Part shown: positions 1 through 51,012 of the stretch, one piece after another
Position numbering within the stretch: the stretch's first letter is position 1
How the letters are laid out: every line of letters begins with the position of its first letter
Sequence record: NC_049815.1
Direction: 5' to 3' (one strand)
DNA length: 51,012 bases
Origin: Escherichia phage tonn
Translations under genes and position numbers: made by a program
Notes under the pieces: model-generated
Database searches by the model: none
What the model saw: only the letters and a program-made list of their open reading frames with translations
What the model was told of the DNA's origin: nothing

Positions 1-666
1 AAATTCTACCGCGCCATCAAGCTTAATTTTTACTGTCATTTCCTCATCTCCTTTGTCATTTAGAACCTCGTCACTATACGGAAAATCTTGCTCGCTATCA
101 AGATTTAATTTAGCAATGCCAGCACGACCACGAAAGACAAGTGCAATGTGATTAACACGGATATTCGTCTGAATGGCGTCAAATTTAACCCAATCAGGAG
201 AATCAGGCTTCCAGTCTTCTTTAAGGTCTTCCTCAAATAAGTAATCACCAGTTTTATTATTACCCCAGCCTGGCTTGTCAATATCAACCGATGTGTAACC
301 AACTGAAATTTCCGCCGCGTCTTTCTTTTTTGCACTCTCAATTGCTCGCTTTGAGTAAATACTTAACGGAACTTCAACGCCAATCCCATTTGGAACACCA
401 GCGCCAGCACAAGAACCAACTACAACCTTTTCGGCGTTTTCTGGCGTTACCGTGACGTGACCAACCGTGACCGGCTTCCCTGCAAAGGTGGCGAGCGAGT
501 CGGCCTTGAATACTTCTGACGCAGGGCGAAATTCTCGGCGCTCACCGAAAGGAGTCTGATAGACTTGTAAACCAATTCGCGCCACGATAGGGCGATCAAC
601 TAAAAACCCGTTATCATCAAAGTGCGCCTTTACTTTGGCGCTATCAAATCTTTGTTTTGCCTTCAT
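1..666 (-). CDS. putative head maturation protease/scaffold-type head assembly protein, 5' part (ORF runs off the window start)
   Basis: ATG at 666-664 followed by 222 sense codons with no stop down to position 1 (own manual translation); directly downstream of the head morphogenesis gene; frame-continuous with 50581..51012 if window ends are joined. Confidence 0.4.
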   Translation of the reverse strand, partial: MKAKQRFDSAKVKAHFDDNGFLVDRPIVARIGLQVYQTPFGERREFRPASEVFKADSLATFAGKPVTVGHVTVTPENAEKVVVGSCAGAGVPNGIGVEVPLSIYSKRAIESAKKKDAAEISVGYTSVDIDKPGWGNNKTGDYLFEEDLKEDWKPDSPDWVKFDAIQTNIRVNHIALVFRGRAGIAKLNLDSEQDFPYSDEVLNDKGDEEMTVKIKLDGAVEF

Positions 667-676
667 TTAATACCTC

Positions 677-1432
677 TTAACTGTTCCAATCTGGTATGGC
701 CCAACAACGACAACCGAAAGGCTCACCAGGAAAATCATGTTCAGAATCTAGCGCAATGCGCTTACCTTCCCATTGTACATGCTGCAATCGCTCTCTGTCA
801 TCAAGCATACCATGCCAAAAATAATGAGTTACTTTTGAATCATAAAGACGCTGGCGCATGAGTCTACTATTCCAAGCGCCTATGATGTTTTCCGCCCTTG
901 TCTTACCCCAAGAGCTATACACTGCGAACCTCTTACCAGCCAATTCATTAACCTGGCTATCTCTCATTCCGCGAAAGTTTGCCAATCTAATATTGGTTGA
1001 CCAGTCAGACACGATGTTTCCAAATAGCTTTTGAAGAGATGCGATCGTCATGTCATGCCATTGACCGTATAGCGTCCTATACCAACTCTCATTCGCATTG
1101 GCCCCAATAGCCATAAGGATGATAACGGCTGAATTTGACTTGCCTCCCGTTGATTTGGCTACGTTAATAAATTGCTTCGCGTTGAATTTATAAACAGCAA
1201 GACCGATAGCCGGAAGTGATGCGGCGATGCCAGCTATTAGCTTTAACGCGAAGCTACTAATCTCATCCTCTGCGGCGTTGATTTCTTCGGTGTCCGCGTC
1301 AAATTTCATTTCCTTTGTTTTGCTGCGCATCAGCACAACAAGATCCCTTATCGCCTCCTGAATTGAGCGGCGCAATTGCCGCTCGCTTGCTTCAGGAAAG
1401 CGCCATTGTTTAACGACGCCTTTCACTATCAT
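677..1432 (-). CDS. phage head morphogenesis / minor head protein (Mu F / SPP1 gp7-like)
   Basis: 251 aa; position right after portal with ATGA overlap; sequence character of Mu F-like minor head proteins (recognised by eye). Confidence 0.7.
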   Translation of the reverse strand: MIVKGVVKQWRFPEASERQLRRSIQEAIRDLVVLMRSKTKEMKFDADTEEINAAEDEISSFALKLIAGIAASLPAIGLAVYKFNAKQFINVAKSTGGKSNSAVIILMAIGANANESWYRTLYGQWHDMTIASLQKLFGNIVSDWSTNIRLANFRGMRDSQVNELAGKRFAVYSSWGKTRAENIIGAWNSRLMRQRLYDSKVTHYFWHGMLDDRERLQHVQWEGKRIALDSEHDFPGEPFGCRCWAIPDWNS

Positions 1433-2727
1433 TGATTGCTACCCTCTGTTGTTCCTGGCTCCGGCTCTACGTCTTGCTCAGGTAATTTAATGTCATTGCC
1501 GTCTTTTAGTTTAACGTTAGGCGCAATGGCTCGCAATGTGTCGCGCGCCTCTTCTGCATCCATGAATTGACCGTCAATAGCCTTACTCAAAGAATCAATG
1601 TTCTTGTTCAAGATTTCGGCCTGGTCCTTTTCGCTTGGAACGCTTAACGGCGCAAACTGAATGCTCCATTCTTCCTCTTGAATAAGGAACGGGATCAGAA
1701 ATTCAAGGATTGGTTTGTATTCTTCCTTTCGCTTTCGGTCGATCAGCTTGTAGAAGGTTTCAAGCGCCGTGTTTTGGCTCGCGCTAACACCGCCAACGTT
1801 CTTGTTTTTGAGGATGATTTCATGGATGCCGGAAAGAGATACAATGCGATCCATCTTCTTTTCCAAGAACGAATCGACGGCAGAAATATCAGAATTTAAA
1901 ACATCATATTCCTCATCTTCCGCATCAATGCCGATCGCACGGCCTACGCCACCCTCATCATCAACTTGAGCAAGTCGCAAACGTGCGGCACTAACACCAT
2001 CATCATCATCACAAAGATCAGCAAGACCTTTAACTTTCCATACCGCCTGTTGCTTACGTCGCAACAATTGAGTTGCTAAGTTTTCGCAGTAGTTATAATC
2101 ACAAATAGCCTCAACAAGTCTCTTATTCAGGATCGACTCACCCCACCCATCATTTGATTGACGCCGCTGATTTGGTAGCCGCTCACCGTCGATAATACAG
2201 ACTCGCGAATAGTGAACCTGGTATTCTGGCAAGTCGACACCAGGTGAAATGGTGTAAATTAATGGCTCACCATATCTTACCTTGCGTGGATTAGTTTCGC
2301 GCTTTTCTACCCTAACCTGAAAGCGATCGTAAACGCGAACATCTTCAAGGATTGCACCAGGCGCTACAGGTGACTTTAACGACCTGCCATCCTGGACGAT
2401 TGCCACGATTGCAGCGCCACCAAAAAGACGCGACCAGCAAAGCGCATCAATGATTTTATCGTTTAGTCGCTTCTCATCCCACAAAGATCTAAAACTTTCC
2501 TCATCTTCCACGCCATCAATATTAAATCCAGGCGTCACCATTTCTTCTGGAACAACGTCGATGATTCGTTTTGCTAGGCCGTCACGAATGTAAAAATCAG
2601 CGTGCGTGGTGTATTCGAACCCCTGCATAAAGAAAGGCAACTCTACACACCCATTGCCCTTACTACCCTTGAAAATCTCGTTGTATCCATCGGCCTTAAC
2701 TAGCCTTGTTTTTTCGCTCATCGTCAA
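1429..2727 (-). CDS. portal protein
   Basis: 432 aa, acidic C-terminus, located between terminase large subunit and head morphogenesis gene. Confidence 0.8.
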   Translation of the reverse strand: MTMSEKTRLVKADGYNEIFKGSKGNGCVELPFFMQGFEYTTHADFYIRDGLAKRIIDVVPEEMVTPGFNIDGVEDEESFRSLWDEKRLNDKIIDALCWSRLFGGAAIVAIVQDGRSLKSPVAPGAILEDVRVYDRFQVRVEKRETNPRKVRYGEPLIYTISPGVDLPEYQVHYSRVCIIDGERLPNQRRQSNDGWGESILNKRLVEAICDYNYCENLATQLLRRKQQAVWKVKGLADLCDDDDGVSAARLRLAQVDDEGGVGRAIGIDAEDEEYDVLNSDISAVDSFLEKKMDRIVSLSGIHEIILKNKNVGGVSASQNTALETFYKLIDRKRKEEYKPILEFLIPFLIQEEEWSIQFAPLSVPSEKDQAEILNKNIDSLSKAIDGQFMDAEEARDTLRAIAPNVKLKDGNDIKLPEQDVEPEPGTTEGSNQ

Positions 2728-2776: not shown

Positions 2777-2798
2777 TTTTAGCAATTAGTGCTATTTA
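2777..2798 (-). promoter_or_regulatory. variant copy of the 21-bp intergenic motif (AAATAGCACTAATTGCTAAAA), followed by TATAAT
   Basis: motif match; its TAG is the terL stop codon. Confidence 0.45.
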
Positions 2799-4360
2799 TT
2801 GCGTAGACCAGCCAGCTTTTTCATCCTTGCTACCGGATCATCTGCCAAGTTCATTTCGACGTTAACAGCATCAACTATATTATCGACAATATCATCATGG
2901 GGATGAGAATCGTCAAAAGTGAACGCTGCAACCTCTGCCATTATCTCAGGTAACATGGGATGACTTTCTGGCAGTGCCACACGTCCGGCCCTCATTACTG
3001 GCGCGGCGTCCATTGCTCGCGTTACCTTGTCATTGCTTCGCTGAACGGGATTTATATCAATCGGGATCTTCTTTTTGGCCCCCTGAATCAAACCCGTGCC
3101 GCTGGCCTTATCCTCAATGTGGATACGTCGCAAGCTGCCACACTCCTTATTGCGCTTCCAGCACTGATTAACGAAGGCAATAAAATTTAATTCAAGATCC
3201 GGCGCTTCCCACTTTCCGCGAATGCCATCAATGAAGTAAACGCGATTCTTATACATCCCCCAATAACAAAAAACTGAATAGTCGTTAAGCTCTCCGGCCT
3301 TCTGCGCGGTATCACCAGTAATAAATGTGTATTCAAAGCGATCCGGTTTAGGAAGTGCGCATTTTTCGCCGCTGCCGTAATACTGGAACCACTCTGTTTT
3401 AAACACGTTGCCGCCAAGCGCGATGGGTTGCTGTTGGTACTGACTGGCGAACGTATAAGGATCTGCATTGCGCAATGCAAGCAATTCCTCCGCGCTTTCC
3501 TTCGCAGGCCAAAATGAATAATGAGCAACGCCATCTATCATCACTGGCTTACTTGACAACACATCACGATCAAATTCAGGCTTCAACCAATCAGGAAGCG
3601 TTTCGCGGTATTCTTTCGTAACCAGCGCCGGAATACTCACAACTTTAAACTCAATACCACCCATCCCGCCATTAAGCATAAACCAGGTGGAATCATTAAC
3701 GTGTAGTCGCTGTTGCACCATAACAATCGGCGTAGTGTCTTTCATTCGACGCGATCGCACTGTGTTTTTTAACCGCATGTGGATCGCCTCACGCTTGACC
3801 TTAGAAAGCATATCATCCGGCTTGTCTGGATCGTCCAGAACCAGCATACCAGTAAAACCATCGTCCATATAGCCGCCACGCAAACCTGTTACCTGTCCGC
3901 CAATAGAACGTGAGTTAACTTGCAATTTAACCTTGCCGCCATCCGTAACTATGAGATCTTTTGCGCTCGCCTTTGCCAGTTTTCCTGGCCATAGCTCTTG
4001 CCACTCAGGAGAACCGATAATCTCCTTTATCCTGTTGCTGTTTTGCTGGACAAGTCCATCACTAAACGAAAGGTTAAGGTTTCTCACCTTCCGACTTTTC
4101 AATGACGCGTAGGGTGACATGTGGATCGAGAAAATCTCAGTCTTACCGCTACCTGGCGTAATGTTGAAAATCACATTCTGCGACTCTCCATTGATGATCT
4201 TCTCTACCTCACTGCACAATAAGCTAAAATGCCAGTTGCTCTGGAATTTTTGCCCCTGCAATAACTGAAACCAGATTCTGATCATCTTTTCGAATGAATG
4301 CTCACTGATTTCTTTAATGGCTCGCTTTTGCGCCGCCGTCAAATCTTCCCATATGATCAT
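2792..4360 (-). CDS. terL: terminase large subunit
   Basis: 522 aa; Walker A-like NITPGSGKTE near N-terminus, C-terminal RNaseH-like nuclease region with acidic residues; TAATG overlap with upstream terS. Confidence 0.9.
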   Translation of the reverse strand: MIIWEDLTAAQKRAIKEISEHSFEKMIRIWFQLLQGQKFQSNWHFSLLCSEVEKIINGESQNVIFNITPGSGKTEIFSIHMSPYASLKSRKVRNLNLSFSDGLVQQNSNRIKEIIGSPEWQELWPGKLAKASAKDLIVTDGGKVKLQVNSRSIGGQVTGLRGGYMDDGFTGMLVLDDPDKPDDMLSKVKREAIHMRLKNTVRSRRMKDTTPIVMVQQRLHVNDSTWFMLNGGMGGIEFKVVSIPALVTKEYRETLPDWLKPEFDRDVLSSKPVMIDGVAHYSFWPAKESAEELLALRNADPYTFASQYQQQPIALGGNVFKTEWFQYYGSGEKCALPKPDRFEYTFITGDTAQKAGELNDYSVFCYWGMYKNRVYFIDGIRGKWEAPDLELNFIAFVNQCWKRNKECGSLRRIHIEDKASGTGLIQGAKKKIPIDINPVQRSNDKVTRAMDAAPVMRAGRVALPESHPMLPEIMAEVAAFTFDDSHPHDDIVDNIVDAVNVEMNLADDPVARMKKLAGLRNK

Positions 4361-4887
4361 TAAAGTTGCTCCAGAATATCAATAACAGCCTCTTTCACCT
4401 CATCGGCAGTTACTGCGTCAATGCTTGCATTAGCTGCCGCGCTAGCTTCAACGCTCACTGTTGCTGGCTTCTCTACGCCGATCTCTTTACCGATAAATCC
4501 AGCATTAATCATGTTATTTGCCGCAAGCTGGAATTTTTGCTCGTAAATTACTTTATCAACAAACTCCATCACATCGCAGAATCCAGGCTCTTTACGCCAT
4601 TTGCTTACGGCAGCCTCAGTCACGCCGAGATACAAGCTGAATCCGTTAACCGTGAAAACGCGAGGCTTGTAAACTCTGCTCTCGTACACGTCACCCTGAA
4701 AGGAAGCAGTTTCAGCCGCCTGGATGTGATTCTCTTCGGCCCAAGTGAAATAGCGGATCGCCATATCAAAAACCTGTTCCGGCGTGTACTTGTGGCGGTT
4801 GTTTAGCGTGACAATATCGCCATAAGTTTTATTATATAACTCTTTGAAATTTAATGCCTTTACAGCAGGCTCAACGTTTTTAGCCAT
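4360..4887 (-). CDS. terS: terminase small subunit (putative)
   Basis: 176 aa from ATG at 4887 with AAGGAGG 7 nt upstream; immediately upstream of and overlapping terL; listed ORF start 4929 is a TTG inside the promoter. Confidence 0.6.
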   Translation of the reverse strand: MAKNVEPAVKALNFKELYNKTYGDIVTLNNRHKYTPEQVFDMAIRYFTWAEENHIQAAETASFQGDVYESRVYKPRVFTVNGFSLYLGVTEAAVSKWRKEPGFCDVMEFVDKVIYEQKFQLAANNMINAGFIGKEIGVEKPATVSVEASAAANASIDAVTADEVKEAVIDILEQL

Positions 4888-4909
4888 TGTTAATCCTCCT
4901 TTGGTTAGA

Positions 4910-4935
4910 TGCCTGATTATACCAAACAACGGGCA
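4910..4935 (-). promoter_or_regulatory. sigma70-type extended -10 promoter (TGGTATAAT) for the packaging/head operon
   Basis: TGGTATAAT on - strand at 4924..4916, ~20 nt upstream of the terS RBS and just downstream of a terminator hairpin. Confidence 0.4.
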
Positions 4936-6907: not shown

Positions 6908-6964
6908 TGCGCTTTCCTCTGTTTCGCTTCAATAAGGGCACTTTACCAAATGCCCTTGCGGAAG

Positions 6965-6986
6965 TTTTAACAAAAAGTGCTATTAA
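6965..6986 (-). promoter_or_regulatory. 21-bp intergenic motif copy
   Basis: TTTTAACAAAAAGTGCTATTA on + strand = motif on - strand; contains stop of upstream gene. Confidence 0.5.
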
Positions 6987-11962: not shown

Positions 11963-12041
11963 GGTGCTTTCTCCTGATTGGTTTTGTGGGCGACGCCGTG
12001 CCGCCCTATGTGATTTATTATGCCTGGTTATCGTTTTCGAG

Positions 12042-12063
12042 TTTTAACAAAAAGTGCTATTTA
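12042..12063 (-). promoter_or_regulatory. 21-bp intergenic motif copy with CATAAT 22 bp downstream
   Basis: motif match. Confidence 0.5.
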
Positions 12064-13865: not shown

Positions 13866-13886
13866 AAATAGCACTTTTTGTTAAAA
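13866..13886 (+). promoter_or_regulatory. 21-bp intergenic motif copy (rightward) with TACATT 22 bp downstream
   Basis: exact AAATAGCACTTTTTGTTAAAA; leader CATCGAAACGAAC at 13917..13929. Confidence 0.5.
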
Positions 13887-13946
13887 CCCAGGCCGCCTGA
13901 TCGGGTACATTACACACATCGAAACGAACCGCTCAGGAGATAGTAA

Positions 13947-14908: not shown

Positions 14909-15172
14909 ATGAAAATTAATGCACCTATTCCAGTTAAGCGCAAAGCACGTTTGCTCAATAACGGGTGTTACGCCCTGCGGCCTGCATTTAAGGATCGCAC
15001 ATTTCCGGTTATCGTTAACGTGTCTCACGTAAGCCGTAGCGGAAATCTGGTATTCGTTAAAGGTGAAGATCTGGCGGCGCTTGGATTCTATGGCGGTGTT
15101 CACGGCGAACCGCTCGGATTCTGGCTTGTGGATCCGTTAACTGGAGAGCGTGAAATCGAATTCCTGGACTAA
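14909..15172 (+). CDS. hypothetical protein
   Basis: 87 aa, TAAGGAG RBS; stop TAA is first triplet of motif copy. Confidence 0.5.
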   Translation: MKINAPIPVKRKARLLNNGCYALRPAFKDRTFPVIVNVSHVSRSGNLVFVKGEDLAALGFYGGVHGEPLGFWLVDPLTGEREIEFLD

Positions 15173-15191
15173 ATAGCACTTTTTGTTAAAA
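15171..15191 (+). promoter_or_regulatory. 21-bp intergenic motif copy with TATAGT 22 bp downstream in hairpin loop
   Basis: exact motif. Confidence 0.5.
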
Positions 15192-15247
15192 ACGATGCGC
15201 TGCTGATTGGTATAGTAAGCGCATCGACAACAAACGAGGATTTAAAG

Positions 15248-16383: not shown

Positions 16384-17093
16384 TGTATAAAGGTTTAATA
16401 TTCTCCCTATTTGATGGATCTGGTAAAGCAGTTAAAGATTGGGCTGATAATGGATATAAGTGCATTTGCTTTAATGCTGACGGCGGCGATCACGGTGATT
16501 ACCAGTCAGTGCGCATACAGCATGAGAATATCGAATACGTTAACGTCTGGATTGATGATGCTTTTTATGTTAAGGCAATCAATAATGAGTTGGGCAATCC
16601 TGATTTTATTATGGCGTTCCATCCTTGCACCGACCTTGCAAATAGCGGATCTCGCCATTGGGCCAAAAAACGCCTTGAGAATCCATCGTTCCAGGATGAG
16701 GCCGCCGACACTTGCAGAATCGCGGCTGATATAGCTGATTATTTCGGTGTTCCTTACATGATCGAAAATCCGGTTGGCAAGTTGTCAACGTTATGGCGTA
16801 AGCCTGATTATACGTTCCATCCGTGCGATTACGCTGGCTATCTGCCGGAAGATGATAAACATCCCGACTTCCCTGATATTATTCCGGCGCGTGATCGCTA
16901 TTTTAAGAAAACGTGCCTCTGGACTGGCAACGGCTTTGTTATTCCTCCACGCGCTTTAATCCTGCCGAAAGAGGAAGACAAAGATAATCCAGGCTGGGCC
17001 AAAACTGGAGGCAAGTCATCGCGCACAAAGATGATCCGCTCCCTCACTCCGCGCGGATTTGCTCGCGCCGTCTTTGAGTCAAACTCAAAATAG
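16384..17093 (+). CDS. DNA cytosine-5 methyltransferase-fold protein, atypical and without a normal target recognition domain
   Basis: 236 aa from ATG 16384 (GAGG RBS); FSLFDGSG (motif I-like), HPC-T at residues 80-83 (motif IV-like), ENPVG (motif VI-like), PARDRYF (motif VIII-like) at M.HhaI-like spacing. Confidence 0.55.
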
Positions 17094-17108
17094 CACTTTT
17101 TGTTAAAA
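17088..17108 (+). promoter_or_regulatory. 21-bp intergenic motif copy with hairpin GCCAGGT-n6-ACCTGGC then CATAAT
   Basis: exact motif; TAG in motif is stop of methyltransferase-fold gene. Confidence 0.5.
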
Positions 17109-17162
17109 GCCAGGTGTAAAAACCTGGCATAATCACATCGAACAAACAAAGGAGATCTGATC

Positions 17163-21344: not shown

Positions 21345-21489
21345 TTTTATTCTCCATATTAATTAAAGTCAATATATTGACCGCATGATAAACGTACATG
21401 GTAAAAAATTAAACAAAAAAAAGAGGCGACAAACGCCGCCCCTTTGCAAGTTTTTGATTTAATTTGTCATTGATTTAAATAAAAATTCA

Positions 21490-22605
21490 TCAATTCATCA
21501 TTTCTGGATAGTGAACAAATCGCCCCACCTCTCCATGCTCTTTGTCGTAAATGATAACCGCCGCACGGCGTCGAGATCGCCAGCCACCGCGCGCGGCGTA
21601 TGCGTCTTTTGCCGCCAGGGTGCTATGCACCTCAACGATGCCAAGCGACGTTTCTGTCACGGTCTGGTGATGCCAGTGCCCTACGTGCGCATACATCGTT
21701 TTTGAGTTTCCGAAGTCCTCCCGCCAATCTGACGCGCACATCATTAGCAAAGCCTCCGGTTTACGCACTGTGTGCCCGTGATGGTACGCAAGGAAAGTTT
21801 TTCCGTATTGCGTGTGGTGCACAACGCGAGGGGAAACATCAACGTAAACGCGCGGCTCGTTTTCATATGCTGCCGCCATTGCTGCGCGTAGCCAAATCAT
21901 TCCTGATTGGTCATGATTGCCCTCTACGATCTGGACTTCAACATGTTTATGCTTTAACAACATTTTATTGATTGCGCGTCGCATTGCACGGATGGCAACG
22001 TAAACCAATTTTGCATATCGACTATCTTGATCCAGTACGTGACCGCTTGCAGGTGTAACCGCCTCCAGGCCGTCGCTATGCAGCATATCGCCACCAATCA
22101 GGATGACAGCCTTTTCGCTATCCGGTGCGCACATTAAAGCATAGTCGATAAAGTTATTCATAACGCGCTCTGCCGTGGCAGTATCCCAATTTTCGCCGCA
22201 TTCGTGCTTATGGGCCATAGCGCCTAAGTGCATGTCAAAGATCGGATACAAGGAAAGCGTTTCGTTATAGTCGCGCTCCTGTAATGGAACCGGATCTAAT
22301 CGCGGCACTTCCTCGCTAAATGCCTCCATTGCTGCGCGCATTAATGCTTCTAATTGCTCTTTATCCTTGCTGGTTTTAGTCCACTTTAGGATTATGTTGC
22401 CTTCTTTGTCAGTCATTACTGACTCACCATGAACGCCAAAACCAGGCGCTCCAATGGTGGATACCTGGCCTTGCTTTGCAAGTCGCGCCGCGCGACGCTC
22501 GACGCTTCTCACATTCATTCCGTACTCTTGAGCGATCTGTTTATATGTCTTACCCGCCGCCCGTTCGATCTTGAATTGCTCATCTGTAATTTTTACATTT
22601 TTCAT
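21490..22605 (-). CDS. calcineurin-like metallophosphoesterase (Mre11/SbcD-like) with N-terminal HTH
   Basis: start at ATG 22605 (MKNVKITDEQ); DMHLG, GDMLHSDG and GNHD motifs. Confidence 0.6.
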   Translation of the reverse strand: MKNVKITDEQFKIERAAGKTYKQIAQEYGMNVRSVERRAARLAKQGQVSTIGAPGFGVHGESVMTDKEGNIILKWTKTSKDKEQLEALMRAAMEAFSEEVPRLDPVPLQERDYNETLSLYPIFDMHLGAMAHKHECGENWDTATAERVMNNFIDYALMCAPDSEKAVILIGGDMLHSDGLEAVTPASGHVLDQDSRYAKLVYVAIRAMRRAINKMLLKHKHVEVQIVEGNHDQSGMIWLRAAMAAAYENEPRVYVDVSPRVVHHTQYGKTFLAYHHGHTVRKPEALLMMCASDWREDFGNSKTMYAHVGHWHHQTVTETSLGIVEVHSTLAAKDAYAARGGWRSRRRAAVIIYDKEHGEVGRFVHYPEMMN

Positions 22606-23117: not shown

Positions 23118-23168
23118 TTCCTCACGTTCGTTTCGATGAAATAATTATGCCCGACAAAATGCCGGGCG

Positions 23169-23189
23169 TTTTAACAAAAAGTGCTATTA
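23169..23189 (-). promoter_or_regulatory. 21-bp intergenic motif copy with hairpin and CATAAT; leader CATCGAAACGAAC
   Basis: motif match. Confidence 0.5.
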
Positions 23190-23444
23190 GTGGATCATTC
23201 CGTTCTGAAAATTCCACGAATCGACAAACTCTTGCATGTCATTTCTTATTTGTTCGTGCCATTTTTCAAGATGTAGTTTTCTTGTATCCTCAAAGCTCAT
23301 ATCTAATGCGCTTGAAAATTCCCACGGATCGCAATCAATCATCTTTTTCACGTTAGGGTTTTTATCAAGTGCATCGCACACCATAGCGCGAAATAACAAC
23401 CACTCGCCAGTTTCATTTAAATAAACGCTTCTCTCTTTTTTCAT
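23187..23444 (-). CDS. hypothetical protein
   Basis: 85 aa. Confidence 0.5.
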   Translation of the reverse strand: MKKERSVYLNETGEWLLFRAMVCDALDKNPNVKKMIDCDPWEFSSALDMSFEDTRKLHLEKWHEQIRNDMQEFVDSWNFQNGMIH

Positions 23445-23448
23445 CGTG

Positions 23449-24174
23449 TTAGCTCCGTTTGCGCGCGCGGCGTTCGGTTACAGAAGGGCAAATATCGCTG
23501 ATCTTAACGTATCGCGTTTTCTGCTCTTCGCCTTCTTTAAGTTTACGCATGACAAAAATCACGCTCCCCTTATTGTTGCCCTGTACAGGCTCGCCAGTCA
23601 ATCCAGACACAAAGGCGATTCTTCCGGTGCGGGAATATTCCACTCCCCCCTCTTCGTAAACCTCGCCAGTGATCCAGATGATTTCAGCCGCGTTTTTCTG
23701 CGCCTCATAAAACCATGCTGTAGAGTTGTCGGATGGCAACAAAACATCAATTTGGTTGTTGTGCTCCATTTGCTCAATTGCTTTCTTGATAAATGGAGTT
23801 GGGTTGCTGTGCGGCGGGTTAAGCCATACGTGCTTGTTGCTACCCCACCAACGCTTTAAGCAATTTGTTTCCTTGCTGTAGAACTTCTCGCAAACTGCGT
23901 TTTCCTGGCTTGCTGCCGCGTCGAGATCGTATTCACCAAATTCTGATTCCATCCACTCCACGATCTCTTGAGGCGTGCTCCACATATCGCGCACAACGTC
24001 CGGCGTAGTGCTTCCAGCGTATCGGTTGCCGCTTACCTTATAATATTGATTTGGCTTTACTGCCTGGTAATGGCCTCCAGTTGCAAGAGCATTTCCTATA
24101 AACGTTTCTCTCTCCAACTGCTCAAAGCTAACGAATGCGTCATATGTGTCTTTATCTAAAATATCTTTAGCCAT
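23449..24174 (-). CDS. dam: DNA N6-adenine methyltransferase (phage Dam family)
   Basis: W-x-TP motif near N-terminus and NPPHS (DPPY-type) catalytic motif. Confidence 0.7.
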   Translation of the reverse strand: MAKDILDKDTYDAFVSFEQLERETFIGNALATGGHYQAVKPNQYYKVSGNRYAGSTTPDVVRDMWSTPQEIVEWMESEFGEYDLDAAASQENAVCEKFYSKETNCLKRWWGSNKHVWLNPPHSNPTPFIKKAIEQMEHNNQIDVLLPSDNSTAWFYEAQKNAAEIIWITGEVYEEGGVEYSRTGRIAFVSGLTGEPVQGNNKGSVIFVMRKLKEGEEQKTRYVKISDICPSVTERRARKRS

Positions 24175-24239
24175 TTTCATTTCTCCGCTATTAAAAGCCA
24201 TCTCGTGTTATTGAATTATGGCGCAATCCATCGCGCCAG

Positions 24240-24261
24240 TTTTAACAAAAAGTGCTATTTA
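24240..24261 (-). promoter_or_regulatory. 21-bp intergenic motif copy with hairpin GGCGCG..GCGCC and CATAAT
   Basis: motif match. Confidence 0.5.
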
Positions 24262-30605: not shown

Positions 30606-31286
30606 ATGAAAATGGCTACAGTTACTAATATTCCTGGTGATATAACGAAGCTGAAAAGTGATGTTTCGACACTAAAACAGGATGTTGCAGGAAAAGCATC
30701 AACTACTGATGTTGACAATAAGTTGAAGCTGTATCTAAAACAAACTGATCTATCATCCGAGTTGGATAGCGGAAGGTATAGTGGGAGTTTTTACCCACTA
30801 ACTGGTAACGATGCATTTTATTTATTTAATCTTAACACAACCGCTCAATCAGCAAACTTATGGCTTGATCCAAATGCTGGAGTGTCGCAAGTTTTACGCT
30901 CCACTTCCTCTTCTCGTTATAAGCGCAGCGTAGAATCGGTTATTGATGAATATGCGGATCTGATGCTTGAAATGCGTCCTGTGTGGTATCGGTCAACTTG
31001 TGAAAGCGACCGTAAAGATTGGGGATGGTACGGGCTAATCGCGGAAGAGGTTGGAGAAATTGCGCCGGAGTACGTTCACTGGCGACCGCTGCAAGAAGGA
31101 GAAGATCCTGCCATTGCTTCAAGTAATGGCATGGTAGCGGAAGGCGTTATGTATGACCGCCTCACTGTTCCACTGATTCACCACGTTAAGAAACTGAAAG
31201 CGGAAAACGATGAGATGAGAAAAGAAATTGACGAGCTAAAAGCGGTTGTAGCGGCACTGGTAAACAAACCAACCACGTTAGACTAA
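30606..31286 (+). CDS. protein with peptidase S74 / intramolecular chaperone-like domain (fibre accessory)
   Basis: S.RYKRSVESV..EY..LMLEMRPVWYR...WYGLIAEEV.EIAPEYV pattern resembling the autoproteolytic chaperone domain of endosialidase-type fibres. Confidence 0.55.
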   Translation: MKMATVTNIPGDITKLKSDVSTLKQDVAGKASTTDVDNKLKLYLKQTDLSSELDSGRYSGSFYPLTGNDAFYLFNLNTTAQSANLWLDPNAGVSQVLRSTSSSRYKRSVESVIDEYADLMLEMRPVWYRSTCESDRKDWGWYGLIAEEVGEIAPEYVHWRPLQEGEDPAIASSNGMVAEGVMYDRLTVPLIHHVKKLKAENDEMRKEIDELKAVVAALVNKPTTLD

Positions 31287-45277: not shown

Positions 45278-45298
45278 TTATAGCACTTTTTGTTAAAA
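45278..45298 (+). promoter_or_regulatory. 21-bp motif copy in antisense orientation within the tail module
   Basis: TTATAGCACTTTTTGTTAAAA on + strand while flanking genes are on - strand. Confidence 0.35.
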
Positions 45299-45337
45299 GT
45301 GGAATTAATTTATTTGATAGATTGATTTTACAGGAAT

Positions 45338-46029: not shown

Positions 46030-46464
46030 TTATTCCTCCTTTGTGTCAAGCCTAACACTGAAACGGATCGGTAAGAACCAACCTGTTTCACTTTTTAGTA
46101 ATGTGTGGACCTTTGCCCCATCGCTAATATAGCCAGTTTCAAACATTCTACCATCATAGAAAAATCTCGCAATCTCTTTAGCCAGCAAACGCGCTTTATC
46201 AGTGCCGCCGCCAGGAGGCATAACAATTCCAACCTGAACCAATCCGATATAAGAAACGCATTTTCTATCAAGAGATATGCGATCTGTGTCGGCTTCCATG
46301 TATTCAAATTTTAACCACATCGAACCATCACCAGGCGGAACAAAATCAACGTTTTCATAGGCGATCTTGAATCGTGATTCATATTCCGCCGCCAGCGCCT
46401 TACGCGCCGATAGCATTAATTCATAGTGACTCATGTTGAACTCCGTGATTTTTGTGGTATCCAA
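46030..46464 (-). CDS. tail terminator / tail completion protein (putative; start probably internal)
   Basis: position immediately upstream of major tail gene. Confidence 0.45.
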   Translation of the reverse strand: MDTTKITEFNMSHYELMLSARKALAAEYESRFKIAYENVDFVPPGDGSMWLKFEYMEADTDRISLDRKCVSYIGLVQVGIVMPPGGGTDKARLLAKEIARFFYDGRMFETGYISDGAKVHTLLKSETGWFLPIRFSVRLDTKEE

Positions 46465-46930
46465 AATTTAATTCTGCATCTTTTCTTGCTTTAGCAGCCT
46501 CATCAAAGCTAACAAAGAAACCTAAGTGCAACCTCTTTTTGTTGTGCATTATTTGAGCGTACCATTTCTTGTTTTTTCGATGATAGTAAACACCGGTAAC
46601 TCCGCTTGAGTTTCTTTTGTCGATTGTTTTGTTTCTCATGTTTCCAGATCTATCAACAATCCTTAGATTCTCAATTCTGTTGTCAGTTGTGTCGTGATTA
46701 ATATGGTCAATCTCCATGCCGTCAGGAATTGGCCCGTTGTGCATCTCCCAAACTATGCGATGAACCCTAAACTGACCGCCAAACATATTAACAACAACGT
46801 ATCCGCGATTATTTACATTTCCAGCTACGTCGCCAACAGAACAAGGATACTTACATTTTGACTGATCTTTAATCTGAATCTTCCAGTAAATAAGTCCATC
46901 TTTGTATGTGAATATATCATCATAGTGCAT
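46421..46930 (-). CDS. HNH homing endonuclease with AP2-like DNA-binding domain
   Basis: HNH block IDHINHDTTDNRIENLRIV...N, and YYHRKNKKWYAQI...LGFF AP2-like block; overlaps both neighbours. Confidence 0.8.
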   Translation of the reverse strand: MHYDDIFTYKDGLIYWKIQIKDQSKCKYPCSVGDVAGNVNNRGYVVVNMFGGQFRVHRIVWEMHNGPIPDGMEIDHINHDTTDNRIENLRIVDRSGNMRNKTIDKRNSSGVTGVYYHRKNKKWYAQIMHNKKRLHLGFFVSFDEAAKARKDAELNFGYHKNHGVQHESL

Positions 46931-47363
46931 TTTTATCCCTCGACTCTTTTATTGCTTCAGCCATATAAGATCTCAACTTAACCGCGACAATCCCAAGCAC
47001 ACCCGCTGGCGCTTGTTTTGAATGACCGTACTCAAGTACGTTAGCGTAAATAAGCATATTTGAAAAATAAATGGCCCTTACTGCGCCGCCACCTCGTAAC
47101 ATTGCGTATATAGCTCGCTTACCTTCCGCGATCGTTTTGTCGCCGTGCTTATCGTACTGGTTAAGCGCATACAATGGCGGCTTGTTTGCTGTTACCTGCC
47201 AGTTTGCACGGTAACGACCAGTATCAACCGGAGAACGCTTAACAAGGTCTGTATGCACTTTTTCGGCGAATAACTCCACGCAATCCTTTAGTCCACTATC
47301 AACGGCGTTTATCCACGCATCAATGTTGCCGTGAAATTCCCTTATCGTATAGTTTTTAGCCAT
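46920..47363 (-). CDS. head-tail joining / tail completion protein (putative)
   Basis: 147 aa; position in connector module. Confidence 0.45.
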   Translation of the reverse strand: MAKNYTIREFHGNIDAWINAVDSGLKDCVELFAEKVHTDLVKRSPVDTGRYRANWQVTANKPPLYALNQYDKHGDKTIAEGKRAIYAMLRGGGAVRAIYFSNMLIYANVLEYGHSKQAPAGVLGIVAVKLRSYMAEAIKESRDKNAL

Positions 47364-47733
47364 GCACAGAAATCCTTCTCAAAATAGGCCGATAAGCAAC
47401 TGTGACATTGGTTTGTCTGATTGGTCTTGCTTCAACTACAACATATAATTCACCATCAACATCAATATGATACCCGTTCTTAATTTCAACTTTATTGTTA
47501 AAAGCTCCCAACTTATCAGTTACTCGTATTGTTTCTCCGTCAACCTCGCGTACTTTTGGTGAGCGAATTAAACCCTTAATCATTACACTGATCTCTGGCT
47601 TTTCTACTTCTTCGCCTCCGATGATTTCAACGCTTCCACGCTGCGTTATGCACTTAAACTCACCGTTGCCATCACTAAAGAAGTTAATTCCTTCAGTTGC
47701 CATTCTTGCGATCTCGTTATAGTTCATTTGCAA
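47356..47733 (-). CDS. head-tail connector protein (putative)
   Basis: 125 aa; overlapping neighbours in connector module. Confidence 0.45.
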
Positions 47734-48140
47734 CGCCTCCTAAATCCAGTCACAAGACCAAATCCACCGCCTTTCTTACGATTTAGCGTTTCGTACATTT
47801 TCCCCCAGGGAGTTTGTCTAATATCTTTTCCGCCAGAGTCGCCTGACACTCGATCAAAAGTCTGGCTAAATTCACCAGTCAGTGAAAATGACGCAACTCG
47901 CCGCGAGTAACTTTCTACGCTTTCCCCTTCTTGCTTCATGGCTCCATCAAGCGTCATAAGGTGCAACGTATAAAGAGCAACCGCTTTAGGATATGACTCT
48001 TTAAACCGCTTCTTGCAAACAAATTCCTTTGCAAGCTCAATCCATGACACCATTAAATCTGGATCAATCTGCTTCATCGGTGGCGCTAATTTCACGATTT
48101 GCTGCGTGATTTCTGCGTCAGTGAAAAATTCATCAACCAT
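47724..48140 (-). CDS. head-tail connector protein (putative)
   Basis: 138 aa. Confidence 0.45.
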
Positions 48141-48187
48141 TGTGTTTCCTCCAGATATGACAAAGGGCGCTTATAGCGCCCTCTTTA

Positions 48188-48460
48188 TTAATAGATGCCG
48201 CCGTCTTCAAGTTCGGCTTTGCTCTTGCCCTCTCGCGGGTCTTTTTTACGTTTGCTTGCTGCGCTCTGTTTGATTTCTTCGTTCAATGCGGAGTTATCTT
48301 TAACCTCCAGATCGCCTTTTGCAATTAGATATTCAAACGCGCTTGTTTTCAATTTTGATTCTTCTACGTCAAACTCTTTGCCTGGATGATAATGCTCACC
48401 ATCAACAATAATAAGGCATACGCCGGAAACCTTTAGCGTTACAGTTTTTTCTTTAGCCAT
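48188..48460 (-). CDS. hypothetical structural protein
   Basis: 90 aa; between major capsid terminator and connector genes. Confidence 0.45.
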   Translation of the reverse strand: MAKEKTVTLKVSGVCLIIVDGEHYHPGKEFDVEESKLKTSAFEYLIAKGDLEVKDNSALNEEIKQSAASKRKKDPREGKSKAELEDGGIY

Positions 48461-48474
48461 TTTATAACCTCCAA

Positions 48475-48503
48475 TAAAAAAGGGAATCCAGTTAAGGATT
48501 CCC
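48475..48503 (-). terminator. rho-independent terminator after major capsid gene
   Basis: GGGAATCC-agttaa-GGATTCCC followed by T6 on the - strand. Confidence 0.55.
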
Positions 48504-48516
48504 CAATGTTATACGA

Positions 48517-49491
48517 TTAACTTGATTTTTTCAAGCCAGTAATAAGCACTAGCGTAAACGGACGGTAAATCGTCAGGCCAGTACATTTTGAAGTGCAGGG
48601 AACTTTGAAATGCAGATCTTTTGGTTGCGCCGGAAGCATGTTAAATGCTTCTGGAATTTCGATCGACATGTTCATCGGGTCTTTCTCATATACCAGACAG
48701 CCTTTCGTTCCTGTGCCGTCAATATCCTCAAGCTCTGCGATCGAGTCAATGGCGATTCCGCTGTTTTGTTTCTGGAAGTATTCCAGATAACTTTCAGTGG
48801 TGTTTTCCATTCGAACGGAAAGAACCTTGCGCATAGACGGCGGAATCAGGATATTGGTTGCGCGGTGCTGACCATTGGTAATGGTCTGAATGGTTTCAAT
48901 AGCCTTTTCCAGTTCATCAGATGCCGCCTGTGGGAACTTGGTGTTTTCATCAGCGCTTAACCAGCCAGCTGACGTAATTTTTGTCAGGTTAGGATGTTCA
49001 AACACCGAAAGAATCTTATGCGGCTTTGAACCCTTAAACACCAGGCGGTTAACTTCCTGATCATGAGCGTTTTGCGCTGCGTTTGCCTTGCGAGTGGAAA
49101 GGCTCTTACCAGTACGCTGACCAGACTTGATTTCGTCAATTGAGATCAAGAACGCGTTACCCAAGCGGAAAACTTTACCGAATTCGCTAGACATCAGCGC
49201 GTCAACGGTCGGCAGGTCGTCGGTGTAATCAGCGATAATTTTTGCGTAACCAACTTTGTCAAACATCTGATATTCAAAAGTCTTATCAGTATCAGAAAGC
49301 TCATTAGTTACAGGGAATACACGAAGCGCAGAACCTGCCGGATATTCTTTCTCGTAAGCATCAGAGCGAATCTTATGCAGTTCTTTAGCGGCCCAAATAC
49401 CCATGTCGTACGCATCACCTTTAACGCCGCGAGTAGCCAGATAGCTAGAAACAATATCCGCATCTAGCTGATCAAATTTTTCTTTTTCCAT
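48517..49491 (-). CDS. major capsid protein
   Basis: 325 aa from ATG 49491 (GGAGGAAGAAA RBS); position after two small head genes; followed by terminator. Confidence 0.65.
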   Translation of the reverse strand: MEKEKFDQLDADIVSSYLATRGVKGDAYDMGIWAAKELHKIRSDAYEKEYPAGSALRVFPVTNELSDTDKTFEYQMFDKVGYAKIIADYTDDLPTVDALMSSEFGKVFRLGNAFLISIDEIKSGQRTGKSLSTRKANAAQNAHDQEVNRLVFKGSKPHKILSVFEHPNLTKITSAGWLSADENTKFPQAASDELEKAIETIQTITNGQHRATNILIPPSMRKVLSVRMENTTESYLEYFQKQNSGIAIDSIAELEDIDGTGTKGCLVYEKDPMNMSIEIPEAFNMLPAQPKDLHFKVPCTSKCTGLTIYRPFTLVLITGLKKSS

Positions 49492-49536
49492 TTTCTTCCT
49501 CCATATATAAAGGCTGTTAGTATGTAACGCCACAAT

Positions 49537-49555
49537 GATAGCATTTTTTGTTAAA
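49537..49555 (+). promoter_or_regulatory. degenerate 21-bp motif copy in antisense orientation upstream of major capsid gene
   Basis: GATAGCATTTTTTGTTAAA on + strand. Confidence 0.3.
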
Positions 49556-49574
49556 CGTGCAACATAATTTTGTG

Positions 49575-50021: not shown

Positions 50022-50025
50022 ATAT

Positions 50026-50048
50026 AAAAAAGGCGCTCAGTGAGCGCC
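50026..50048 (-). terminator. terminator-like hairpin GGCGCTC-agt-GAGCGCC followed by T-run on - strand
   Basis: between the two paralogous head genes. Confidence 0.45.
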
Positions 50049-50055
50049 ATATTTA

Positions 50056-50568
50056 TTAACCTGCTGAAGATGCAGGAACTTTTTGCACCTGAACCTCTAC
50101 CAGCTTCAAGTCTTGAAACTTGGTAAAGTCACCAGTTGCGATCCAGTTTGTTTCGATAGTGCCAGACCCGGTATCAACCTGACCATCATCAGACAGTTTG
50201 ATTTTAGTGCCGAACGCTGGCGCGGTGGCGTCTTCAGCCAACATCCAAACACGCCCTTCAGTCATTACGTTGATTCCGCCGCCAGATTCATAAATCATTC
50301 GGCCGTCAGACGAAGTTGTCTGAAAGTGAGATCGAATTGCAACGCCGTAAGCCTTGCCGCTTGCCGCCATCGGCTTAATTAGCTTATTGCCCATAGCATC
50401 AACGCCGCCATGCTGGACTGCAACACCAACAAAAATGTTTTTGTTCTGGTTGCCTTGCGCATTCTCAAGAACACAAGCGCCATCAATATTATAAGCTGAA
50501 GTGTCAGAAACCTGACCAGGTAACGCACGAGACATTACAGCAAAATAACTTGCTCCAATTGTAGCCAT
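50056..50568 (-). CDS. head structural protein (paralog of 49575..50021)
   Basis: 170 aa; see paralog blocks above. Confidence 0.55.
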   Translation of the reverse strand: MATIGASYFAVMSRALPGQVSDTSAYNIDGACVLENAQGNQNKNIFVGVAVQHGGVDAMGNKLIKPMAASGKAYGVAIRSHFQTTSSDGRMIYESGGGINVMTEGRVWMLAEDATAPAFGTKIKLSDDGQVDTGSGTIETNWIATGDFTKFQDLKLVEVQVQKVPASSAG

Positions 50569-50580
50569 GTTTATTTCTCC

Positions 50581-51012
50581 TTATTTAAGTTTTTTCAAAC
50601 GCGCAGTCGGATCAAGGGAGTCGGTTTTTTCACTCTTGCCAGATTCGAAAGAATCGCCCTTAACAGATTTACGCTGCGCCGCCATTTTATCAGACTGCTT
50701 CGCAAGGTCAAAAGCTGTTTCAATATATGCATCGGCTTTTTCTGAAATATCGGCGCCGGTGACTTCTTTGACGTAAGCAACTTTGATCGCTTTGGCGTCC
50801 AAGCCGTCACACTTGATGCCAATTTCAGTTGCATCTGCAACCAGCTTGGCGTGTTCTTCTGCGTCAGTCTTTGCCTTCTTAACAGCTTCTGCAATCTGCT
50901 CCGGAATGCCATCGACTTTAGTTTTCAGGGCGTCGCGCTCGGCCTCAAGGCCATCAGCTTTTTCGGTTGCAGCTTTTGCATCTGCCTTTAACGCCTCAAT
51001 ATGATCAGCAAC
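50581..51012 (-). CDS. scaffold-like head protein, 3' part (ORF enters from beyond the window end)
   Basis: frame open from 51012 to stop at 50581 (144 codons); Ala/Lys/Glu/Asp-rich helical composition typical of scaffolding proteins. Confidence 0.5.
   Translation of the reverse strand, partial: VADHIEALKADAKAATEKADGLEAERDALKTKVDGIPEQIAEAVKKAKTDAEEHAKLVADATEIGIKCDGLDAKAIKVAYVKEVTGADISEKADAYIETAFDLAKQSDKMAAQRKSVKGDSFESGKSEKTDSLDPTARLKKLK

What the first reader, a model, noticed from the sequence alone, without database searches (positions are those of the whole stretch)
1..666. Window ends interrupt a single in-frame gene: the window is probably a complete circular genome assembly
On the - strand an ORF starts at ATG 666 and runs without a stop exactly to position 1 (222 codons), and another frame is open exactly from position 51012 to a stop at 50581 (144 codons). 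Joining 1 to 51012 would give one continuous 366-codon head gene (protease/scaffold-like) between the head morphogenesis gene and the paralogous head protein genes, in correct operon order. The size (~51 kb) also fits a complete T1-like genome.
Basis: seen in the sequence. Interest (0 to 1): 0.45.

Follow-up and report, generated by a model that had tools for sequence, protein, structure and literature searches.

The report
Phage genome opened inside protease gene
The window is a whole T1-like coliphage genome (phage tonn) cut open at an arbitrary point inside its capsid protease/scaffold gene, but 15 bases that every relative has are missing at the cut; it is an ordinary feature of how such genomes are assembled and deposited.

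Summary
On the minus strand, ATG 666 runs open to base 1 (222 codons), and base 51012 runs open to a stop at 50583-50581 (143 codons plus stop). The two pieces are the N- and C-terminal parts of one prohead protease/scaffold gene (Pfam DUF2213, phrog_530).

The window is a full rotation of a Warwickvirus genome. It is collinear with phage vB-Eco-KMB46 all round the circle. By exact protein matches and length it is the published Escherichia phage tonn (MN850596, 51,012 bp).

The ends do not abut seamlessly. All 15 related genomes examined and 120 of 120 homologue cluster representatives carry five more codons (D-V-P-K-A, 15 nt) exactly between window positions 51012 and 1. No sequence with the direct junction turned up in any collection searched.

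The best reading is an essentially complete genome with a circular map (pac/headful, circularly permuted phage), linearised arbitrarily inside a gene, with 15 nt lost at the cut. The frame match follows because 15 is a multiple of 3. A real 5-residue deletion is a minority alternative.

This is already known biology and of low interest, beyond a curation note.

The parts
1..666 (-). 5' part (codons 1-222) of the prohead (capsid maturation) protease / scaffold fusion gene. It starts at ATG 666 and runs off the window at base 1. It covers the protease domain (DUF2213), a disordered linker and the first strand and a half of a small beta-hairpin.
   Evidence: PF09979, 92 bits; phrog_530, E = 3e-106. 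Structure model. Foldseek top hit is T4 gp21 protease 5jbl. H70, S121 and H173 are invariant in 57 homologues.
50581..51012 (-). 3' part of the same gene: 143 codons plus the TAA stop at 50583-50581. It encodes the Ala/Lys/Glu-rich helical scaffold-like C-terminal domain and enters the window at base 51012.
   Evidence: phrog_36941 matches residues 210-365. Helices span 226-344 in the model of the 370-aa homologue.
51012..51012 (.). The junction 51012|1. Relative to every relative, 15 nt are absent here: + strand GGCCTTTGGAACATC in Hanrivervirus-type genomes, coding strand GATGTTCCAAAGGCC, which is Asp-Val-Pro-Lys-Ala.
   Evidence: The 15-mer is not found elsewhere in the window with up to 2 mismatches.
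677..1432 (-). Head morphogenesis (Mu F-like) gene, immediately upstream of the split gene.
   Evidence: PF04233, weak; phrog_324, E = 9e-64. The protein is identical in many Warwickvirus contigs.
1429..2727 (-). Portal protein gene.
   Evidence: PF06381, 255 bits; phrog_146.
2792..4360 (-). Terminase large subunit gene.
   Evidence: PF17289, phrog_38.
4360..4929 (-). Terminase small subunit gene, P22 gp3-like (headful/pac type).
   Evidence: PF16677 GP3_package, 43 bits against cut-off 29; phrog_606.
50056..50568 (-). Capsid cement/decoration protein, paralogue 1, immediately downstream of the split gene.
   Evidence: PF22758, PF23982. The exact protein is QHR69116.1 of phage tonn.
49575..50021 (-). 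Capsid cement/decoration protein, paralogue 2.
   Evidence: PF23982, PF22758.
48517..49533 (-). Major capsid protein gene. The true start is probably internal to this GTG ORF, because relatives have 321-324 aa.
   Evidence: PF09950; phrog_264.

Best explanation
The window is the deposited genome of Escherichia phage tonn (Warwickvirus, Drexlerviridae). It is one full turn of a roughly 51-kb T1-like genome whose map is circular, because the phage packages concatemers by the pac/headful route (terminally redundant, partly circularly permuted virion DNA). The assembly was linearised at an arbitrary point that falls inside the prohead protease/scaffold gene, so that gene appears as two open fragments at the window ends. 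At the cut, 15 nt (five codons, Asp-Val-Pro-Lys-Ala) are missing from the record. The most likely cause is an imprecise contig end or trimming error in a short-read assembly of a mixed lysate. Because 15 is a multiple of three, the fragments still read in frame.

Shown: the two ORFs, their identity as one gene, the genome-wide collinear rotation, the exact 15-nt gap, and the universality of the five residues.

Inferred: that the 15 nt are present in the real phage, and that their loss is technical.
For: - ORFs and in-frame join.
- One gene: phrog_530 in a single stretch, residues 1-363, and PF09979.
- Junction continuity: the 2.4-kb junction sequence aligns as one piece to 65 or more phage genomes.
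- Completeness: whole-genome BLAST against KMB46 places window 51012 opposite KMB46 23436 and window 1 opposite KMB46 23452. Only 15 nt lie between, and the rest is a collinear rotation.
- Every relative has the five codons: the only indel in the protein against herni, BEK7, pSf-1 and ten Warwickvirus contigs is DVPKA, exactly at residue 222|223.
- Selection on the five residues: they are kept while their codons differ synonymously between lineages (GATGTTCCAAAGGCC, GACGTGCCGAAAGCG, GACGTGCCAAAAGCA), which indicates purifying selection.
- Wider homologues: 0 of 120 cluster representatives, down to 58% identity, lack these columns.
- Direct junction not seen elsewhere: the deleted-junction pattern gives 0 hits in IMG/VR and 0 in JGI metagenomes, while the undeleted pattern gives 7 IMG/VR hits.
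- Identity of the record: exact proteins come from phage tonn on a 51,012-nt contig; Table 1 of PMC7552041 lists tonn as MN850596, 51,012 bp, GC 44.5%.
- Assembly conditions: CLC/SPAdes on Illumina reads from enrichment lysates that were not plaque-purified. The tonn lysate (45C) also held the Hanrivervirus haarsle at similar coverage. Its head module is about 95% identical to tonn's, and identical for 112 nt and 21 nt on either side of the cut. That makes this a hard region for an assembler.
- Packaging type: the small terminase subunit is P22 gp3-like; T1 and TLS use pac/headful packaging with terminal redundancy and partial permutation (PMC11447400).
Against: - No reads are available, so the 15 nt are inferred from relatives and not observed in this phage.
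- The loss is exactly in frame and falls on codon boundaries (within a 1-nt alignment ambiguity). A natural deletion would require this, whereas a random technical loss achieves it only about one time in three.
- The documented circularisation errors are for long-read assemblers, and this genome was assembled from Illumina reads.
- The exact technical cause could not be reconstructed. A single-SNP bubble would leave a 1-nt gap, not a 15-nt one.
Confidence: 0.85

Rival explanations
1. The junction is real. Phage tonn carries a natural in-frame 15-nt deletion (loss of DVPKA) between the beta-hairpin and the first scaffold helix. Either the deposited record is a seamless circle, or the contig broke there because a deletion/non-deletion bubble with the co-resident phage haarsle split the assembly graph at exactly that place.
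For: - The gap is a multiple of three and compatible with codon boundaries.
- A graph bubble at an indel would make a circular genome's single contig begin and end exactly at the indel (inference).
- Lysate 45C contained a second phage with a near-identical flanking sequence that does carry the 15 nt.
Against: - The five residues are present in 120 of 120 homologue clusters and 15 of 15 genomes, and are conserved through synonymous change.
- In the model they form the end of the second hairpin strand and the start of the 36-residue helix 226-261, which is a structured element rather than a loop of variable length.
- No sequence with the direct junction exists in IMG/VR or JGI metagenomes.
- Neither the 365-aa protein nor its two fragments occur among about 15 billion proteins.
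- There is no microhomology beyond 1 nt that would promote such a deletion.
Confidence: 0.08
2. The mosaic contig is a mis-assembly. The window would be a chimera of a Warwickvirus backbone and Hanrivervirus-derived head-module sequence from the same mixed lysate, and the two ends would not belong to one molecule.
For: - About 5 kb (window ~46.4k-51012 plus 1-396) is 95-100% Hanrivervirus-like, while the rest is 98-99.6% identical to the Warwickvirus KMB46.
- No other phage record contains the breakpoint at window 396-409.
- A Hanrivervirus (haarsle) was in the same lysate.
Against: - The head module in the window differs by about 5% from the deposited haarsle sequence, so it is not haarsle DNA.
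- Only two Drexlerviridae genomes were recovered from the lysate and each needs a head module (inference).
- Both window ends lie inside the same Hanrivervirus-like segment and align as one piece to Hanrivervirus genomes, so the ends belong together whichever backbone they sit on.
- Mosaicism is usual in this family (PMC11447400).
- An HNH homing endonuclease gene sits at the left edge of the module, which offers a natural mechanism.
Confidence: 0.05
3. The window ends are the physical ends of the virion DNA (a defined terminus inside the protease gene).
For: None beyond the fact that the record is linear.
Against: - T1-like phages package by pac/headful with terminal redundancy, and the small terminase subunit here is P22 gp3-like.
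- There is no terminal repeat at the ends.
- A terminus that removes five conserved codons from an essential head gene would be lethal unless covered by redundancy.
- Related deposited genomes start at many different arbitrary positions.
Confidence: 0.01

Closest known systems
Escherichia phage tonn (Warwickvirus tonn; GenBank MN850596; Olsen et al. 2020, Viruses 12:986, PMC7552041)
   Same: Exact-sequence proteins (170-aa cement protein QHR69116.1 and 138-aa head-tail adaptor QHR69112.1) on a single 51,012-nt contig. Length and GC (44.5%) are identical to the window.
   Different: Nothing detectable. The record itself is not in the searchable phage collection, so base-for-base identity was not checked.
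Escherichia phage vB-Eco-KMB46 (OR525699.1) and vB_EcoS_swan01 (NC_048202.1), genus Warwickvirus
   Same: KMB46 is 98-99.6% identical over about 46 kb and is a collinear rotation with the same gene order. Both genomes carry an intact 371-aa protease/scaffold gene at the position of the window junction.
   Different: Their head module (adaptor to scaffold domain) is only 65-90% identical to the window. They have a Big_2-bearing decoration protein where the window has a 148-aa paralogue. KMB46 lacks the HNH gene at 46421-46930. Both carry the 15 nt missing from the window.
Hanrivervirus phages BEK7 (MN158209), herni (NC_049823) and pSf-1 (NC_021331)
   Same: Window 46.4k-51012 plus 1-396 is 96-97% identical to BEK7 and herni. 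They have a 370-aa 'head maturation protease' that matches the joined window protein residue for residue from about residue 114 onwards.
   Different: They contain DVPKA at the junction. The rest of their genomes is only 70-85% identical to the window.
Prohead protease-scaffold fusions and the herpesvirus-assemblin-like prohead proteases (T4 gp21, PDB 5jbl; P2 gpO by recollection)
   Same: A beta-rich N-terminal protease domain is followed by a helical scaffold-like tail. Foldseek's top hit is T4 gp21 (probability 1.0, TM 0.58 on the target). His, Ser and His are invariant (H70, S121, H173).
   Different: There is no detectable sequence similarity to solved structures. Foldseek E = 2.7e-3 is modest. 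The catalytic residues are not experimentally assigned for DUF2213.
Imperfect circularisation of assembled circular contigs (Wick et al., Trycycler, PMC8442456)
   Same: A few bases are missing exactly at the start/end of a contig that represents a circular map. Polishers do not see this because they treat the contig as linear.
   Different: It was described for Flye long-read assemblies. This genome came from CLC/SPAdes short-read assembly, where the usual signature is a repeated k-mer, which is absent here.

Membership tests
Complete circular-map (circularly permuted) phage genome assembly | The two contig ends fall in one gene, on the same strand, in a compatible frame. | tested here: met
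Complete circular-map (circularly permuted) phage genome assembly | The whole contig is a collinear rotation of a related complete genome, with no module missing. | tested here: met
   97% of each genome aligns and the order is preserved around the circle. Lengths are 51,012 against 50,953.
Complete circular-map (circularly permuted) phage genome assembly | Seamless junction: the last base is immediately followed by the first, with nothing missing or duplicated. | tested here: not met
   15 nt are present between the ends in 15 of 15 related genomes and 120 of 120 homologue clusters.
Complete circular-map (circularly permuted) phage genome assembly | Direct terminal repeat or repeated k-mer at the contig ends (the CheckV/SPAdes signature of circularity). 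| tested here: not met
   There is no exact terminal repeat of 10-300 nt, and no 12-20-mer from the first 200 nt occurs in the last 2 kb.
Complete circular-map (circularly permuted) phage genome assembly | Reads spanning the junction. | not testable with these tools
   No read data are available.
Drexlerviridae / Tempevirinae / Warwickvirus | Genus-level nucleotide similarity and synteny with Warwickvirus members. | tested here: met
   99.0% identity to KMB46 and 98.9% to swan01 over window 1-25000. NCBI taxonomy lists Warwickvirus tonn. About 10% of the genome (the head module) is Hanrivervirus-like.
DUF2213 / phrog_530 prohead protease with scaffold-like C-terminal domain | Profile match above the curated threshold over the full length. 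| tested here: met
   PF09979 at 92.2 bits against cut-off 22. phrog_530 E = 3e-106 over residues 1-363.
DUF2213 / phrog_530 prohead protease with scaffold-like C-terminal domain | Assemblin/gp21-like protease fold with conserved Ser/His catalytic residues. | tested here: inconclusive
   The model has mean pLDDT 73. Foldseek's top hit is T4 gp21 with probability 1.0 but E = 2.7e-3. H70, S121 and H173 are invariant, but their catalytic role was not tested.
DUF2213 / phrog_530 prohead protease with scaffold-like C-terminal domain | Conserved hairpin-to-helix junction motif KIKLDG-x-x-EF-[DE]-[VI]-P-K-x-VA-x-HI. | tested here: not met
   The directly joined window protein lacks the five central residues, and all 120 homologues have them. 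This is the reason for inferring missing sequence.
pac/headful packaging phage (terminally redundant, circularly permuted DNA) | P22 gp3-type small terminase subunit plus large terminase subunit. | tested here: met
   PF16677 at 43.4 bits against cut-off 29.4, and PF17289.
pac/headful packaging phage (terminally redundant, circularly permuted DNA) | Physical evidence of a pac fragment, terminal redundancy or permutation. | not testable with these tools
   Known for T1 and TLS from the literature (PMC11447400), but not determined for tonn (PMC7552041 has no occurrence of 'terminal' or 'circular').

The most novel reading that the evidence does not exclude
Phage tonn really lacks the five otherwise universal residues (DVPKA) that link the beta-hairpin to the first scaffold helix of its prohead protease/scaffold protein. 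It would be a viable natural deletion in a strictly conserved hinge. It may have arisen with the Hanrivervirus-to-Warwickvirus head-module exchange, whose right breakpoint lies inside the same gene.
Probability: 0.07. Interest if true: 0.2.

Novelty: already known. Interest (0 to 1): 0.1.

Why it matters
The value is practical rather than conceptual. As deposited, an essential head gene (the prohead protease/scaffold) is split across the record ends, so linear gene callers miss or truncate it. Simply circularising the record would create a protein with a spurious 5-residue deletion in a conserved motif. Anyone using this genome for comparative genomics, pangenome counts, protein family building or completeness benchmarks should rotate it and restore or verify the 15 nt. 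More generally, 'the ends are in frame in one gene' is good evidence that a genome is complete, but it does not show that the junction is exact.

Tried and rejected
- **Terminal repeat or k-mer overlap at the window ends:** none found.
- **Same strain or direct junction in public collections:**
  - The window-specific 34-mer gave 0 hits in IMG/VR, JGI metagenomes and GTDB genomes.
  - The joined-junction patterns gave 0 hits.
- **Exact protein look-up:** the 365-aa joined protein, the 370-aa repaired protein and the 222-aa and 143-aa fragments are all absent from about 15 billion proteins. No independent assembly of this strain exists to settle the junction.
- **The look-up of encoding contigs with the cement protein:** nothing on record.
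- **Fetching MN850596 itself:** it is not in the collection.
- **Sequence search of solved structures:** only noise, E > 0.1.
- **Missing 15-mer misplaced elsewhere in the window:** not found.
- **A repeat near the ends that might explain the break:** the abundant 21-23-nt intergenic repeat family is not near the junction.
- **Long-read assembly, suggested by homopolymer differences against KMB46:** rejected, because the paper states Illumina plus CLC/SPAdes.
- **A simple SNP bubble with haarsle as the cause:** it would leave a 1-nt gap, not a 15-nt one, so the exact technical cause remains unknown.
- **Physical termini at the window ends:** rejected on packaging type.

Full report
**1. The observation**

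Translating the minus strand of 1-666 gives 222 sense codons from ATG 666 to base 1 without a stop. Translating the minus strand from 51012 gives 143 sense codons and then TAA at 50583-50581. The window ends share no direct repeat of 10-300 nt, and no 12-20-mer from the first 200 nt recurs in the last 2 kb.

**2. What the gene is**

- The joined protein hits Pfam PF09979 (DUF2213; shown as 'Pa193_gp24') at 92 bits against a cut-off of 22.
- It hits PHROG 530 'head maturation protease' in a single stretch covering residues 1-363, E = 3e-106.
- An AlphaFold model of the closest full-length homologue (P0001, 370 aa, 95% identical; mean pLDDT 73) shows these elements:
  - a beta-rich N-terminal domain, residues 1-180;
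  - a disordered linker, 183-209;
  - a small beta-hairpin, 211-225;
  - long helices, 226-344.
- The best Foldseek hit in the PDB is the T4 capsid assembly protease gp21 (5jbl; probability 1.0, E = 2.7e-3, TM 0.58 on the target), with KSHV protease further down the list.
- H70, S121 and H173 are invariant in 57 homologues.

It is therefore a prohead protease with a fused scaffold-like C-terminal domain.

| Window position | Gene |
|---|---|
| 4360-4929 | small terminase subunit, P22 gp3-like |
| 2792-4360 | large terminase subunit |
| 1429-2727 | portal |
| 677-1432 | Mu F-like head morphogenesis |
| 50056-50568 and 49575-50021 | two paralogous cement/decoration genes |
| 48517-49533 | major capsid protein |

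Annotated relatives have the same order.

**3. What the window is**

- The first 25 kb are 99.0% identical to Escherichia phage vB-Eco-KMB46 and 98.9% to swan01, both genus Warwickvirus, Drexlerviridae.
- A whole-genome BLAST against KMB46 shows a collinear rotation in which 97% of each genome aligns.
- Exact-sequence look-ups show that the 170-aa cement protein and the 138-aa adaptor are proteins of Escherichia phage tonn, on a single contig of 51,012 nt.
- NCBI taxonomy places the phage as Warwickvirus tonn.
- Table 1 of Olsen et al. 2020 lists tonn as MN850596, 51,012 bp, 44.5% GC. The window has the same length and GC.

So the window is a published 'complete genome' record, and the broad claim that it is a whole genome opened at an arbitrary point is right.

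**4. The junction is not seamless**

- *Genome alignment.* In the alignment with KMB46, window 51012 pairs with KMB46 23436 and window 1 pairs with 23452. KMB46 bases 23437-23451, exactly 15 nt, have no counterpart.
- *Hanrivervirus genomes.* Alignment of the joined ends to herni, BEK7 and pSf-1 shows a single 15-nt gap (GGCCTTTGGAACATC on the + strand) precisely at the window boundary. The corresponding proteins are 370 aa, and the only indel is DVPKA after residue 222.
- *Warwickvirus contigs.* Ten Warwickvirus contigs that encode an identical head morphogenesis protein all have a 371-aa protease with DVPKA at that place.
- *Codon usage.* The five codons differ synonymously between lineages (GATGTTCCAAAGGCC, GACGTGCCGAAAGCG, GACGTGCCAAAAGCA) while the peptide stays the same. 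This indicates purifying selection.
- *Wider homologues.* Among 120 cluster representatives from a 5.8-billion-protein search, down to 58% identity, none lacks these columns. The motif KIKLDGxxEF-[DE][VI]PKx-VAxHI is general.
- *Structure.* In the model the five residues form the end of the second hairpin strand and the N-terminus of the 36-residue helix 226-261.
- *Public sequence collections.* Direct-junction patterns find nothing in IMG/VR or JGI metagenomes, whereas the undeleted pattern finds seven IMG/VR contigs.
- *Protein collections.* Neither the 365-aa protein, nor a repaired 370-aa version, nor the two fragments occur in the protein collection. No independent assembly of this strain exists to settle the point.
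- *Within the window.* The 15-mer is not misplaced elsewhere.

**5. Interpretation**

An indel that coincides to the base with the record's arbitrary ends cannot be a coincidence. Either the 15 nt were lost at the contig ends, or a real deletion caused the contig to end there. I favour loss (about 0.85) for three reasons:

- the five residues are universal and under selection;
- nothing with the direct junction exists anywhere searched;
- the assembly conditions were difficult.

On the conditions: genomes were assembled with CLC 10.1.1, sometimes with SPAdes, from NextSeq reads of enrichment lysates rather than purified plaques. Table S1 shows that tonn (354x) came from the only lysate with four phages, one being the Hanrivervirus haarsle (244x). 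Haarsle is taken to be the 48,613-nt IMG/VR contig L024, because its length matches Table 1. It is about 95% identical to the window's head module, and exactly identical for 112 nt before and 21 nt after the cut. These are among the longest shared runs in the module.

[quoted passage not shown] SPAdes normally leaves a repeated k-mer on such contigs (PMC13108922), and none is present here, so the ends have been processed. The in-frame fit then follows because 15 is divisible by three, which has a prior of roughly one in three.

The rival, a natural in-frame deletion with a graph bubble against haarsle, explains the frame and the break point. It conflicts with the conservation data, and I give it about 0.08.

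Physical termini at this place are excluded for practical purposes. T1 and TLS use pac/headful packaging with terminal redundancy and partial permutation (PMC11447400), the small terminase subunit is P22 gp3-like, and there is no terminal repeat.

**6. Mosaic structure seen on the way**

- Window ~46.4k-51012 plus 1-396 (adaptor, connector proteins, major capsid, both cement proteins and the C-terminal two-thirds of the protease/scaffold) is 95-100% identical to Hanrivervirus phages: 97.2% to BEK7 over 4.6 kb.
- From position 409 onwards the window is about 100% Warwickvirus.
- The right breakpoint, 396-409, lies inside the protease domain.
- The left edge coincides with an HNH homing endonuclease ORF (46421-46930; PF13392, 78 bits). 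KMB46 does not align there (window 46429-46918 is uncovered), whereas BEK7 aligns across the whole stretch and its record annotates a homing endonuclease under the match.
- No other phage record contains the 396-409 breakpoint.

Because the module differs by about 5% from haarsle, it is not a simple chimera with that phage. A natural exchange, possibly by homing-associated co-conversion, is the simplest reading. A mis-join in the mixed-lysate assembly cannot be excluded without reads. Both window ends lie inside the same Hanrivervirus-like segment, so this question does not affect the conclusion about the junction.

**7. Verdict**

- Observation: confirmed.
- Interpretation: partly supported. 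It is one gene and an essentially complete genome, but the ends are 15 nt apart. The native gene is most likely 370 codons plus stop, and the DNA is circular only as a map.
- Novelty and interest: this is known biology in a published genome, so interest is low. The useful outcome is a curation note: rotate the record, and verify and restore the 15 nt.

Noticed in passing
window ~46429-51012 plus 1-396 (right breakpoint 396-409): A head module of about 5 kb (adaptor to scaffold domain) is 95-100% identical to Hanrivervirus phages (BEK7 97.2%). The remaining ~46 kb is 98-99.6% identical to the Warwickvirus KMB46. The right breakpoint lies inside the protease domain of the split gene. No other phage record has this breakpoint. 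The lysate also held the Hanrivervirus haarsle, but that phage's module differs by about 5%.
   Followed up: partly
window 46421-46930 (- strand): An HNH homing endonuclease ORF (PF13392, 78 bits, plus a weak AP2 domain hit) sits at the left edge of the Hanrivervirus-like module. KMB46 does not align over window 46429-46918, and herni aligns only from about 46920. BEK7 aligns across it and its record annotates a homing endonuclease under the match. Homing-associated co-conversion of flanking DNA could explain the module exchange.
   Followed up: partly
window, at least 16 sites, e.g. 6964-6986, 12041-12063, 23168-23190, 24239-24261 (+ orientation) and 13866-13892, 15171-15197, 17088-17114, 45278-45304, 49538-49555 (reverse orientation): A conserved intergenic repeat of about 21-23 nt, GTTTTAACAAAAAGTGCTATTTA, occurs in both orientations following the direction of the gene blocks. 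It looks like the family of 18 intergenic 21-base repeats reported upstream of start codons in phage TLS (PMC11447400 abstract).
   Followed up: no
window 30684 (within ORF 30606-31286, + strand) against KMB46 3421-3470: KMB46 carries a 50-nt tandem duplication flanked by CTAAAACAGGAT that the window lacks. In the window the ORF is intact: 226 aa, with a Peptidase_S74 intramolecular chaperone domain at about the Pfam cut-off (22.1 against 22 bits). KMB46 has an unannotated gap there.
   Followed up: no
L024 (IMG/VR contig of 48,613 nt, taken to be phage haarsle), junction-equivalent position: The co-resident Hanrivervirus has GGCCTTTTGAACATC instead of GGCCTTTGGAACATC. This would change the conserved Pro of DVPKA to Gln (DVQKA). 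It is either a rare variant or an error in that record.
   Followed up: no
window 49575-50021 against KMB46 21641-22429 and swan01 21439-22452: The second cement/decoration paralogue is 148 aa here. It is 262-337 aa with a Big_2 Ig-like domain in Warwickvirus relatives, and 129-144 aa in Hanrivervirus relatives. The capsid decoration of tonn is therefore of the Hanrivervirus type.
   Followed up: no
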